Part shown: positions 3,986 through 6,813 of the stretch, piece after piece
How the letters are laid out: every line of letters begins with the position of its first letter
How positions within the stretch are numbered: the stretch's first letter is position 1
Assembly: GCA_038872135.1 (NCBI GenBank)
Contig: JAVZGN010000019.1
Location: forward strand, 1 to 19,702
Direction: 5' to 3'
Source of the DNA: Candidatus Hadarchaeales archaeon
GTDB taxonomy: Archaea; Hadarchaeota; Hadarchaeia; Hadarchaeales; Hadarchaeaceae
Length of the DNA: 19,702 bases
Made by a program: the position numbers and the translations under genes
The notes under the pieces: generated by a model
Told to the model about the DNA's origin: nothing
The model's database searches: none
What the model saw: only the letters and a program-made list of their open reading frames with translations

Positions 3986-4321
3986 TCAAAGGTATTTGCT
4001 AATCTTGCTCTTGGGCACAAGCACGATATTGCCTCCTGAAAGAGTTCTAATCGAGTAACTTATCACAATATTCGCTTGAAAGCAGGCATTATTTTTCTTT
4101 GACGAGTACCTACTTCCCCATATTATGCTAGCCCAAGCAGGTTTAGTAGCCCTGCCCATAAGTGGATTCTCCAGTAATTGTCCACTTCTACTTTCCGCCT
4201 TACCAAAACTTGTACGAATCCTCCTCTGAAACTCGAACCGCGCATCTTTGGGAATCGTTGCATAGTGGCATACTCTTTCTGACACCCACAGCCTTTTTCT
4301 GAACACTATCTCTTCTGCCAT
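3986..4321 (-). CDS. Hypothetical ORF with a weakly AbrB/MazE-like N-terminus, probably degraded
   Basis: FRKRLWVSERVCHYATIPKD resembles the AbrB beta-hairpin TIPK motif. TTTAAA lies about 21-27 nt upstream of the ATG on the minus strand. The rest of the ORF is unrecognisable. Confidence 0.3.
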   Translation of the reverse strand: MAEEIVFRKRLWVSERVCHYATIPKDARFEFQRRIRTSFGKAESRSGQLLENPLMGRATKPAWASIIWGSRYSSKKNNACFQANIVISYSIRTLSGGNIVLVPKSKISKYL

Positions 4322-4459
4322 GCTTGAGTTCTGTATCTGGATTTAAATTTTACAACCTCGGCTTTGATGACATGTCGAGTTTCTCGCTTTAGCCAGTTCC
4401 GCCTCCATAAACCATCGATAAAGGAGGCGGTAAAATGTGCCTCTGGAGGTGAGGAAAGA

Positions 4460-5438
4460 ATGAAGTACATAGGGCTGGATGTCCACAAACACACTTGCCA
4501 TGCGACGGTGATGGATGAAACCGGACGAATAGTGAAGCAGGAGAGGTTCAGGAACGCATGTGAGGAATACGAGCTGTTCTTCAGAGACATCCCGGAGGCC
4601 AAGGTCGCGATGGAAGCAAGCTACTGCTGACAGCCAGTGTACGATGTGCTGGAGGCGATCGGCCACGAGGTAAAGCTGGCTCATCCGAAGAAGACGCGCA
4701 TCATCGCAGAGGCGATGATAAAAACGGATGCCAAGGACTCGGAGACCCTAGCCCATCTGCTCCGGAGCAACCTTCTCCCGACTTCTTGGGTACCCCCAAA
4801 GGAGACAAGGGACCTCAGGGAACTCGTCAGGATCAGGACATACCTAGTCAGGGAGCAGACGAGGTTCAAGAATAAATTCGCGCGGAACTCGCGAAGAGGG
4901 GTATAGTTTTCTCGGCGAGTCCGTTCGCCAAAAAGCGGAGGCAGCTTCTGACGGAGTTCGGCATTCCGACCCTAAACGAGTGTTTAGCGGTTCTGGGCGC
5001 ACTGGGACGGCGTATCCGAGAGATCTCAAAGGAGATAGAGCGTAAGGCCGAGGAGAGCGAGGACGCGAGGATGCTCATGAGCATTCCAGGGATAGGCCAC
5101 TTCTCAGCACTGGTGGTCCTGGCGGAGATGGGGACATCTCGAGGTTCCCGGACCCGGAGAAACTATGCAGCTACGCTGGCCTTGTTCCGTCGGTGCACCA
5201 GTCGGATTCAACGGTGAGACACGGACACATAACCAAGGAAGGAAGCAAGATGCTCAGGTGGGTTCTGCTGGAGTGTCTCTGGTCGCACCTGCGGTACGAC
5301 ACGCACATCACGAGGTTCTACCATCGGCCGGCGCGCAAGAAGGGCAAGAAAGTTGCAGCAGTCGCTGCGGCGCGGAAGCTACTCGTGGCCATCTACTGGA
5401 TGCTCAGAAAACGGGAGGAGTTTCACGCTCGACCGTAA
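4460..5438 (+). pseudogene. IS110 DEDD recombinase/transposase, disrupted
   Basis: YIGLDVHK, AMEA, KTDAKD, SIPGIG, SYAGLVPSVHQS, ITKEGS and VAAARKLL are all present, with GGAGGTGA upstream. There is an in-frame TGA at 4628-4630 and frameshifts near 4875-4878 and near 5130-5133. Confidence 0.93.
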
Positions 5439-5441
5439 ATC

Positions 5442-5564
5442 GGGGCGGGGGTACCTCGATTCAGAACATGCGGCTTTGAGCGCGCGGCTTTGATTGAGGG
5501 CCCTTCAAGCGCAAAACCATAGTACGGCTTAGACCGTGGATAGGTGTGTGCGCTCCGCCGCCCC
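5442..5564 (+). ncRNA. Putative bridge/seek RNA of the IS1111-type element
   Basis: A closing stem GGGGCGG/CCGCCCC encloses two hairpins with internal loops. Loop 1 segments match the insertion target and a loop 2 segment matches the element end. Folding was done by eye and the boundaries are approximate. Confidence 0.75.
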
Positions 5565-5801
5565 ATCTTTAAAAGAGGAAGCTCGAGATAAAAATGGAGC
5601 GCGGAACTAAACGCGGAAACTCAACATAGGTGTTCTGAACTCGGGAGATGTGTAGCGTAATTTTACTCCCCGGTATGTGTTTCGGCCGGAGATTCTGGAG
5701 GTTCTGAGTTCTTGCAGGCATCCTTATCAGCTCAAAGTTGCGAATCGGCCCCTGACGAATCTGCTCCCCACTACCCCAGCGCCGGCCGATGCGTCGGGAG
5801 A

Positions 5802-6656
5802 TCAGAGGCTGAGGAGCCTCAACCATGTGTTCCTTCCGAGATGCAGCTTGATCCCCGCGGCTGTTATGGGAGTGGTGCCGAAAGCCATGTGTGGCCTGAC
5901 GAAGTTGTAGAAAGCCCTGAACCCATCGAGCCATCGCTGTCCGGTCTCGCCCCGCTTGAACCCGCGCATAGTCTTCACGCGCATCCGCGTAGTCTGGATC
6001 TTCCGCTCCATGAGGTTTGTTTTCGGCAGACCTTCCCGATAGTGCAGATGCTGTTGGAGTTCGCACCGCCTCCAGCCCAGAAGCCACTTCCCGCCCTCGC
6101 GGTAGGCCTGGAGACCATCGGTGGAGAGAACACTCGGCCTTGCCCCGGCGTTTGTCAAGGCTTCTCCGAGCACCCTCTCGGCCTGCTCTGCCGTGTGCTG
6201 CCAGCCTTCGCTGATTTCGCCTGCCAGCCACAAGCGCGTGTCCGCATGCATGACCTCCCAGTCCCAGCCATCGCCGCCCACGCGCACATGCATCTCGTCT
6301 GCGCACCACTTCCCGGTGAGTAGAAGTCCGAGCTTTCGGAGAACCCCTCGCAGCAGTTCACCGAACCTCTGGGCCCACCTCCAAATGGAGGTCCAGGATG
6401 GTTGCCAGCGTGGATGATGGCGCTTGAAATGGCGTTCTGCCGCGCGCGTGGAGAGATCTTCAAAGTGTATGTCCACCGCTTGCGCCACGACTGATTTTGG
6501 GTACCAGAGACCCAAGGTTCCATCGTCTGGGACGAAACGACGCCTGCGGGTCTTGCAGAGCCAGCGCTGTTTGCGCTCAAAACGGTTATATCTCCATCCC
6601 GCCCTAACTGTATTTGCAGATTCACAGAATCTGCAGGCGGGGTGCTTCACCCACAT
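5802..6656 (-). CDS. IS6-family DDE transposase with N-terminal Zn ribbon
   Basis: CRFC...QRWLCKTR (fourth Cys replaced by Arg), HTH SWTSIWRW, WCADEMHV, LSTDGLQAY, TNLMER, RGFK and YNFVRPH. The exact start codon is uncertain. Confidence 0.9.
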   Translation of the reverse strand: MWVKHPACRFCESANTVRAGWRYNRFERKQRWLCKTRRRRFVPDDGTLGLWYPKSVVAQAVDIHFEDLSTRAAERHFKRHHPRWQPSWTSIWRWAQRFGELLRGVLRKLGLLLTGKWCADEMHVRVGGDGWDWEVMHADTRLWLAGEISEGWQHTAEQAERVLGEALTNAGARPSVLSTDGLQAYREGGKWLLGWRRCELQQHLHYREGLPKTNLMERKIQTTRMRVKTMRGFKRGETGQRWLDGFRAFYNFVRPHMAFGTTPITAAGIKLHLGRNTWLRLLSL

Positions 6657-6813
6657 CACCTTTCGGAGTCGTAGATGGCCCCCGCCTCTCACAGGCCATC
6701 AATTTTTCTATCATCTTTCACCACAATCCAGTTGGGGTGCGTCCAAAAAATCATTTCCCGAGTTTGAAACAGAGCCCAAACCTACCATCTCGAGATTTTA
6801 TGGTTATTAGCAA

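What the first reader, a model, noticed from the sequence alone, without database searches (positions are those of the whole stretch)
5442..5564. Readable archaeal bridge RNA whose guides spell the IS6 end
Seen: hairpin 1 (CCTCGATT 5454-5461 / GATTGAGG 5492-5499) carries TTCAGAACA (5460-5468), the exact reverse complement of the right flank plus core (5631-5639), and CGGCTTTG (5485-5492), identical to the left flank plus core (4359-4366). Hairpin 2 (GCGCA/TGCGC, inner ACGG/CCGT) carries ATAGGTG (5540-5546), identical to the element end 5626-5632. The opposite donor guide matches poorly (about 4/9). The guides fit this IS6 repeat (TTCTGAA) and not the other (TTTCAAA). Established: IS110 bridge RNAs have target and donor loops, and IS1111 members encode them downstream of the recombinase. 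Inference: a compact ~120-nt programmable bridge RNA with a TG/CA core.
Basis: partly seen in the sequence, partly recalled or inferred. Interest (0 to 1): 0.9.

Follow-up and report, generated by a model that had tools for sequence, protein, structure and literature searches.

The report
Bridge RNA of a dead archaeal IS1111-type element

Summary
Window 4367-5632 is a 1.27 kb IS110-family element with the IS1111 layout. It has a DEDD recombinase gene (4460-5441), a ~125-nt structured RNA gene downstream (5442-5564), and 12-bp subterminal inverted repeats with 7/3-nt extensions.

A covariance model built from 8 homologues found the RNA in 66 places (58 distinct) among 100 sources. 26 of 27 base pairs show compensatory changes.

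The loops covary with the DNA:
- The donor-loop 3' strand equals the element's last 7 nt in 45 of 46 elements, across five variants.
- Both target-loop strands match their own flanks far better than other elements' flanks. 0 of 2000 permutations reach the observed score on either side.
- The core base agrees between the two loops.

The right guide spells the terminal inverted repeat of an IS6 element (5631-6771).

This copy is a fossil. Its recombinase has an in-frame TGA and two frameshifts, and it is the only copy in the assembly. Bridge RNAs/seekRNAs in the right end of IS1111 elements are already published (PMC11208160, PMC11187229).

Verdict: a real feature, correctly interpreted, and a new member of a known kind. 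No RNA data were available.

The parts
4359..4366 (+). Left target flank plus core (CGGCTT + TG; core copy at 4365-4366)
   Evidence: Identical to RNA positions 5485-5492. In the family, RNA columns 5486-5491 equal flank positions L-5 to core1 in 78-97% of 33 elements, against 28-58% expected.
4367..4459 (+). Left end of the element. Contains the subterminal inverted repeat ATGTCGAGTTTC (4372-4383) and a conserved hairpin CCGCCTCC (4399-4406) / GGAGGCGG (4423-4430)
   Evidence: homologues keep a hairpin here with changed letters; 12-nt repeat, 11 of 12 matching, 7 nt from the boundary when the core is counted.
4460..5441 (+). DEDD recombinase pseudogene. In-frame TGA at 4628-4630 (W in homologues), frameshifts near 4873-4876 and 5137-5139, stop at 5439-5441
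   Evidence: Three-frame translation. PF01548 and PF02371 on the pieces. Profile search of the genome finds it as three pieces with stops. Intact homologues are 325-333 aa.
5442..5564 (+). Bridge RNA / seekRNA gene. Closing stem is 5442-5448 with 5558-5564
   Evidence: Covariance model R1 scores 126.5 bits here, but the window was one of the 8 seed sequences. Family-wide, 92.1% of cells are paired and 26 of 27 pairs show compensatory change. The fold z-score is -2.63.
5449..5503 (+). Target-binding module. Stem 5449-5452 and 5454-5458 with 5495-5503. 5' guide strand 5459-5468 (complement of core + right flank). Inner hairpin 5469-5484 (G-G mismatch at 5473/5480). 3' guide strand 5485-5492 (same as left flank + core)
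5509..5553 (+). Donor-binding module. Stem 5509-5513 with 5549-5553. 5' strand 5514-5522. Inner hairpin 5523-5538. 3' strand 5539-5548, holding ATAGGTG at 5540-5546 (same as the right end + core)
   Evidence: (45 of 46 elements).
5565..5632 (+). Rest of the right end. Subterminal inverted repeat GAAACTCAACAT (5616-5627), 3-nt extension AGG (5628-5630), core TG (5631-5632)
5633..5639 (+). Right target flank TTCTGAA, which is also the start of the IS6 inverted repeat
5631..6771 (-). IS6-family element that provided the target. Inverted repeats 5631-5650 and 6752-6771. Transposase gene 5802-6692 on the minus strand
   Evidence: pair I1, 20 nt, 80% complementary. (PF13610 DDE_Tnp_IS240, E 2.3e-07). 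Single copy in the assembly.

Best explanation
Window 4367-5632 is a decayed insertion sequence of the IS110 family with the IS1111 layout, in a genome whose closest relatives' records are titled Hadarchaeota/Hadesarchaea.

Mechanism (inferred from the studied bacterial systems): positions 5442-5564 encode a two-module bridge RNA (seekRNA), transcribed in the sense of the recombinase gene. When the element was active, the DEDD recombinase would have bound this RNA.
- The target loop paired with both strands of the target CGGCTT-TG-TTCTGAA. Its 5' strand pairs with the top strand of core plus right flank. Its 3' strand pairs with the bottom strand of left flank plus core.
- The donor loop paired with the joined ends of the excised circle. 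Its 3' strand pairs with the bottom strand of ...ATAGG-TG. Its 5' strand pairs with a few bases of the left end.
- Recombination took place at the shared TG core.

The right half of the target is the first bases of an IS6 terminal repeat, so this element landed on the edge of another mobile element.

Shown here: the anatomy, the conservation of structure, and the covariation of loops with DNA. Inferred: transcription, protein binding and catalysis. This copy can no longer move by itself, because its recombinase gene has a stop and two frameshifts and no other copy is in the assembly.
For: Domains: PF01548 and PF02371 on the recombinase pieces and on an intact homologue.

Layout: the non-coding part is longer downstream (5442-5632) than upstream (4367-4459).

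Subterminal repeats: median 13 bp in 32 elements. The window has 12 bp with 7 and 3 nt extensions, as described for IS1111 (PMC11187229 introduction, passage read).

RNA family: 66 matches, 58 distinct, in 100 sources. 92.1% of cells are paired against 72.9% in shuffles, and 26 of 27 pairs have changes on both sides. Slid controls give 35-52% paired. Conserved G-U pairs (53, 52 and 57 of 58 rows) fit only the + strand.

Donor guide: identical to the element's last 7 nt in 45 of 46 elements, with five variants.

Target guides:
- Right: own mean 6.39 of 10 against 3.68 for other elements' flanks. 13 of 41 own pairs reach 8 or more, against 9 of 1628 cross pairs.
- Left: own mean 6.22 of 8 against 3.27. 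23 of 37 own pairs reach 7 or more, against 12 of 1310 cross pairs.
- 0 of 2000 permutations reach the observed sum on either side.

Core: core base 1 agrees with both loops in 94-100% of 33 elements.

Order of guides: the top-strand complement comes first, as reported for IS1111 seekRNAs (PMC11187229, passages read).

Literature: bridge RNAs were predicted in the right end of 93% of IS1111 elements (PMC11208160, passage read).
Against: - No RNA evidence of any kind was obtained.
- The recombinase is broken.
- The target-module inner hairpin carries a G-G mismatch in this copy.
- The 5' donor strand complements only 4 of 9 positions here. Family-wide it does not complement the core (5 and 6 of 34) and covers only left-end positions +1 to +4, which hardly vary. 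That half of the donor loop therefore rests mostly on conservation.
- Many homologues match their right flank imperfectly. 13 of 41 score 5 or less out of 10.
- Two different registers of the 5' target strand had to be allowed.
- Elements are related, so the permutation figures overstate independence.
- The left-flank 8-mer is also part of the conserved hairpin sequence.
Confidence: 0.9

Rival explanations
1. The RNA is a target-only guide. The target loop is real, but the 'donor loop' is not a guide, and the ends are recognised by the protein through the long subterminal inverted repeats.
For: Long subterminal repeats are present. The 5' donor strand does not complement the core and covers only 4 almost invariant bases. 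The right-end 7-mer varies at only three positions.
Against: The 3' donor strand follows all five right-end variants in 45 of 46 elements. The core base in the donor loop changes together with the core in the target loop and in the DNA. The module has the same internal-loop-plus-hairpin build as the target module.
Confidence: 0.07
2. The conserved block acts as DNA (binding sites or an old junction copied into the element) or as a plain 3' UTR or terminator structure. On this view the flank matches are by-products.
For: No transcript data exist. The block lies directly after the stop codon.
Against: Compensatory changes occur in 26 of 27 pairs, and conserved G-U pairs point to a folded + strand RNA. 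The loop letters change with the flanks in unrelated insertion sites. In a sister lineage the same RNA lies upstream of the gene and still matches its flanks, so it is not a 3' UTR feature.
Confidence: 0.02
3. The matches and hairpins in this window are chance.
For: Each match is short (7-9 nt). The 8-nt and 7-nt matches were reached in 60 and 69 of 5000 shuffles.
Against: All three matches together were reached in 0 of 5000 shuffles. The family-wide covariation also argues against chance.
Confidence: 0.01

Closest known systems
seekRNAs of IS1111-family elements (ISEc11, ISKpn4, ISPa11, ISPst6; Siddiquee et al. 2024, PMC11187229, passages read)
   Same: - DEDD recombinase of about 330 aa.
- RNA encoded downstream of the gene.
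- Subterminal inverted repeats of about 12-13 bp with 7 and 3 nt extensions.
- The guide complementary to the top strand lies 5' of the guide complementary to the bottom strand.
- The two target matches overlap at the insertion point.
   Different: - The hosts here are archaeal.
- The sequence family has no Rfam model match.
- Here a clear second, donor-matching module with the same build as the target module lies inside one closing stem. I could not see the published folds, because figures and supplements are not held, so I cannot say how different the shapes are.
IS621 bridge RNA (IS110 group; Durrant et al. 2024, PMC11208160, passages read)
   Same: - Two internal loops, one for the target and one for the donor.
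- Each loop has two strands that read opposite DNA strands.
- A shared 2-nt core.
   Different: - The IS621 RNA lies in the left end, upstream of the gene, and its subterminal repeats are only 2-3 bp.
- Here the RNA lies in the right end, the span between closing-stem ends is ~125 nt, the core is TG or AG, and the 5' donor strand does not cover the core.
- That paper says many IS1111 orthologues hold the donor-binding bases in a multi-loop. This family has simple internal loops for both.
[quoted passage not shown]
   Same: An IS1111-type element whose target is the terminal repeat of another mobile element.
   Different: Here the prey is an archaeal IS6 element, and only the right half of the target lies in its repeat. 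The left half is the DNA outside it.

Membership tests
IS110 family (DEDD recombinase elements) | [quoted passage not shown] | tested here: met
   Window pieces hit PF01548 (E 1e-06 and 7.7e-13) and PF02371 (E 0.0011, below the cut-off, and 2.6e-15). The intact homologue L002 has both (E 1.9e-22 and 2.9e-28).
IS110 family (DEDD recombinase elements) | Intact recombinase reading frame (needed for an active member) | tested here: not met
   In-frame TGA plus two frameshifts. The element is a fossil member.
IS1111 group | The longer non-coding region lies downstream of the recombinase gene | tested here: met
   191 nt downstream (5442-5632) against 93 nt upstream (4367-4459). Of the 66 RNA matches, four (L124, L126, L132, L144) lie upstream of the gene. 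For the others, the coordinates listed put the match after the gene, read by eye.
IS1111 group | Subterminal inverted repeats of about 11-13 bp with 7-nt left and 3-nt right extensions | tested here: met
   The window has 12 nt (11 of 12 matching) with offsets 7 (core counted on the left) and 3. The median length is 13 nt in 32 elements. 8 of 32 have offsets 7/3 and 14 of 32 have 11/6. By eye, the 11/6 cases are the same repeat with a 1-nt indel.
IS1111 group | Recombinase related over its full length to that of IS1111 itself | not tested
   No named IS1111 reference protein was compared, and no tree was built.
Bridge RNA / seekRNA | Target loop whose two strands match opposite strands of the two target halves and covary with them | tested here: met
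Bridge RNA / seekRNA | Donor loop whose strands match the two element ends | tested here: inconclusive
   The 3' strand is met (45 of 46). The 5' strand complements left-end positions +1 to +4 (28, 34, 29 and 30 of 34) but not the core (5 and 6 of 34), and there is little variation to test.
Bridge RNA / seekRNA | The same core dinucleotide is written in the target and donor loops | tested here: met
   RNA positions 5491 and 5545 equal core base 1 in 94-100% of 33 elements. Core base 2 is G throughout.
Bridge RNA / seekRNA | The RNA is transcribed, binds the recombinase, and retargets when its loops are changed | not testable with these tools
   Needs RNA sequencing and recombination assays.
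IS6 family (the neighbouring element) | DDE transposase of the IS240/IS26 type between terminal inverted repeats | tested here: met
   PF13610, E 2.3e-07. 20-nt repeats, 80% complementary. No 8-bp direct repeat is seen at its borders (read by eye).

The most novel reading that the evidence does not exclude
These archaeal elements form an undescribed clade of bridge-RNA recombinases. The records carrying them are titled Hadarchaeota, Bathyarchaeota, Woesearchaeota, Micrarchaeota and Methanosarcinales. Their RNA is compact and nearly symmetric: about 125 nt, with two look-alike internal-loop modules, each capped by a GCGG...CCGC hairpin, inside one closing stem. The same RNA family sits downstream of the recombinase gene in most lineages and upstream in a sister lineage, and its guides still fit the flanks in both. 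That would be a close-range example of the RNA gene having moved between the two ends. Intact members would be small candidates for programmable recombination in archaea.
Probability: 0.35. Interest if true: 0.5.

Novelty: new member of a known kind. Interest (0 to 1): 0.35.

Why it matters
It shows that the RNA-guided recombination logic worked out in bacterial IS110/IS1111 elements can be read directly from sequence in uncultured archaea. It also supplies a calibrated RNA model and about 40 natural guide-target pairs.

The intact orthologues found here (for example in L002, L005, L006, L007 and L008) could be tested as compact recombinase-RNA pairs. This window's own copy could not.

For annotating this genome, it explains a 1.27 kb stretch as a dead insertion sequence that landed on the edge of an IS6 element. 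It does not change what is known about the mechanism.

Tried and rejected
- Rfam: no family matched at gathering scores in the whole window. With E up to 10 on 4300-5700, only two meaningless weak hits appeared.
- Sequencing runs: no RNA holder listed.
- Other copies or an empty target in the same genome: none. The element, the RNA model, the recombinase profile and the IS6 each match only this locus. The best near-target has 1 mismatch, and the pattern is only about 1.5 times as common as its reversed control (132 matches against 85).
- Earlier notes of this scan: nothing to show.
- Column-by-column covariation of the 5' target strand gave no diagonal, because homologues use two registers. 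It was redone right-justified in two classes.
- One search failed on a one-base coordinate slip and was repeated correctly.
- In one search my C-terminal query was in the wrong frame. Its hits reflect DNA similarity and were not used.
- tRNA next to the L006/L007 insertions: the flank looks like a tRNA 3' end by eye. ARAGORN called nothing there (it found only a tRNA-Glu 280 nt away in L007), and Rfam called nothing. This stays unconfirmed.
- RNAalifold proposed an ACC/GGT pairing inside the donor loop. I dropped it because it breaks in homologues whose right end differs.
- I did not fold the protein or predict a complex, because neither would change the verdict.

Full report
**The observation**

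- TTCAGAACA at 5460-5468 is the reverse complement of TGTTCTGAA at 5631-5639.
- CGGCTTTG at 5485-5492 equals 4359-4366.
- ATAGGTG at 5540-5546 equals 5626-5632.

I shuffled 5442-5564 5000 times. The 9-nt match was reached 2 times, the 8-nt match 60 times and the 7-nt match 69 times. All three together were reached 0 times. The opposite senses gave only 4-nt matches. One caution applies: CGGCTTTG also occurs at 5471-5478, as half of a conserved hairpin.

**What surrounds it**

Between the two TG dinucleotides at 4365-4366 and 5631-5632 lies a 1.27 kb element.

Its reading frame (4460-5441) carries the DEDD_Tnp_IS110 and Transposase_20 domains, but it is broken. There is an in-frame TGA at 4628-4630, where homologues have tryptophan, and there are two frameshifts near 4873 and 5137.

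The ends carry a 12-nt subterminal inverted repeat, at 4372-4383 and 5616-5627, with 11 of 12 positions matching. It lies 7 nt (core included) from the left boundary and 3 nt from the right. This is the geometry described for IS1111-family elements (PMC11187229, introduction passage).

To the right lies an IS6-family element. Its 20-nt inverted repeats are at 5631-5650 and 6752-6771, and its transposase gene on the minus strand carries DDE_Tnp_IS240. The right half of the target is therefore the first bases of the IS6 repeat, and the left half is DNA outside IS6.

The guide fits the near repeat in 9 of 9 positions.

**Relatives**

A DNA search of 60 related genomes, plus scans of genome and metagenome collections with a protein alignment, gave intact homologues of 325-333 aa. 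The titled records are mostly Hadarchaeota/Hadesarchaea and Bathyarchaeota. Others are Woesearchaeota, Micrarchaeota and Methanosarcinales.

The roughly 125 nt after the stop codon align well across 8 elements. I built a covariance model with a structure of six helices:
- one closing stem;
- a first module (stem, internal loop, inner hairpin);
- a second module of the same build.

In 100 sources the model found 66 matches, 58 of them distinct. Of 14 loci with bacterial record titles among those sources, 1 matched (L029, titled Patescibacteria).

On the model-fitted alignment, 92.1% of cells pair, against 72.9% in shuffles and 35-52% when partners are slid. 26 of 27 pairs show changes on both sides. 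That alignment leans towards the model's structure, but the size of the effect and the pair types (GC, CG, AU, UA in the inner hairpins) are clear. Three G-U pairs conserved in 52-57 of 58 rows fix the folded strand as the recombinase-sense strand.

**Do the loops read the DNA?**

*Donor, 3' strand.* I located the right end by a motif that does not use the guide. The 7 nt of the donor-loop 3' strand then equal the element's last 7 nt in 45 of 46 elements, across five variants: ATAGGTG, ATAGATG, ATAGGAG, ATAGAAG and ATAAGAG. 12 of the 58 rows had no right-end motif within 200 nt, because of short contigs, divergent ends or the upstream-RNA lineage.

*Target, both strands.*
- Right side: after removing duplicates, 41 right flanks scored a mean of 6.39 of 10 against their own 5' strand, and 3.68 against other elements' strands.
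- Left side: 37 left flanks scored 6.22 of 8 against 3.27.
- No permutation out of 2000 reached the observed sum on either side.
- Poor scorers were kept in these counts. Some of them (for example L106, L124 and L139 on the left) probably have wrongly placed ends.

*Column by column.* RNA positions 5486-5491 equal flank positions L-5 to core base 1 in 78-97% of 33 elements. Both 5491 and 5545 follow core base 1, which is T or A.

*Register of the 5' target strand.* It comes in two registers. 20 elements, the window among them, complement both core bases. 21 elements are shifted by one base.

*Donor, 5' strand.* It complements left-end positions +1 to +4 in 28, 34, 29 and 30 of 34 elements, but the core in only 5 and 6 of 34.

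**Mechanism**

By homology with the experimentally studied systems, this is the element's bridge RNA (seekRNA). The target loop pairs with both strands of CGGCTT-TG-TTCTGAA. The donor loop pairs with the joined ends. Exchange happens at the shared TG.

The order of the guides, with the top-strand complement first, is the order reported for IS1111 seekRNAs and the reverse of the IS110 type (PMC11187229, passages). Durrant et al. predicted bridge RNAs in the right end of 93% of IS1111 elements (PMC11208160, passage).

Transcription, protein binding and catalysis are inferred, not shown. No RNA data could be had (see Tried and rejected).

**State of this copy**

It is a fossil. The recombinase is broken. 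The inner hairpin of the target module has a G-G mismatch. Left-end position +4 departs from the family consensus. The assembly (34 contigs, 91% complete) holds no other copy of the element, the RNA or the recombinase, and no empty target.

The guides still match their flanks almost perfectly, 9 of 10 and 8 of 8. This fits a guide-directed insertion followed by decay in place.

**Novelty**

The kind is known. Two things are new here: the particular archaeal RNA family, which has no Rfam match, and its anatomy.

I searched the held literature for bridge RNA with IS110 and archaea, seekRNA with IS1111, and bridge recombinase with archaeal. I then read passages of four papers. I found statements that IS110/IS1111 elements occur in archaea, and large-scale mining of bridge RNAs, but no description of this clade. 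Figures and supplementary tables were not available and may contain it.

I score it as a new member of a known kind, with modest interest.

Noticed in passing
L124:1344-1477, L126:1040-1173, L132:1344-1477, L144:569-699: In four loci the same RNA family lies directly upstream of the recombinase gene, with no recombinase homologue further upstream. The guides still fit. In L124, L126 and L144 the donor 7-mer recurs once, downstream of the gene, followed by the complement of the 5' target strand. In L144 the left flank fits with 1 mismatch, and an unoccupied look-alike target lies at about 310-325. One RNA family therefore sits on either side of the gene in sister lineages.
   Followed up: partly
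L008:1141-1271 and 2432-2457 (same as L026): This element appears to be inserted inside the donor module of another IS1111-like element's RNA. A weak model match (E 0.0013) ends at its left border. A fragment matching model positions 84-109 starts at its right border. The C-terminal part of a second recombinase gene lies upstream.
   Followed up: partly
L005 (same as L023), minus strand: Two related elements (recombinases of 326 and 327 aa) lie in tandem, separated by a duplicated 11-13 nt stretch that matches the target guides of both. The first one's right flank is out of register with its guide by 2-3 nt.
   Followed up: no
L002:2598-3734 (minus strand); also L102, L003 and L103 flanks: The L002 element interrupts an IS66-family transposase gene (PF03050, E 3.3e-29). 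L102, L003 and L103 share a similar right flank. Several members of this clade therefore sit in other mobile elements, as the window's copy does.
   Followed up: partly
L006 and L007, right flanks (L007 from 2238): The right flank begins with a sequence that looks by eye like the reverse complement of a tRNA T-arm and acceptor 3' end. Neither ARAGORN nor Rfam called a tRNA there.
   Followed up: partly
window 4399-4406 / 4423-4430: A hairpin in the left end, just upstream of the recombinase start, is kept in homologues with changed letters (for example CCACCTCC...GGAGGTG in L002). Its function is unknown. It may be a regulatory or protein-binding structure.
   Followed up: no
window 5631-6771: The IS6 element has no matching 8-bp direct repeat at its borders (CTCGGCTT on the left, GAGCCCAA on the right). 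It is single-copy in the assembly.
   Followed up: no
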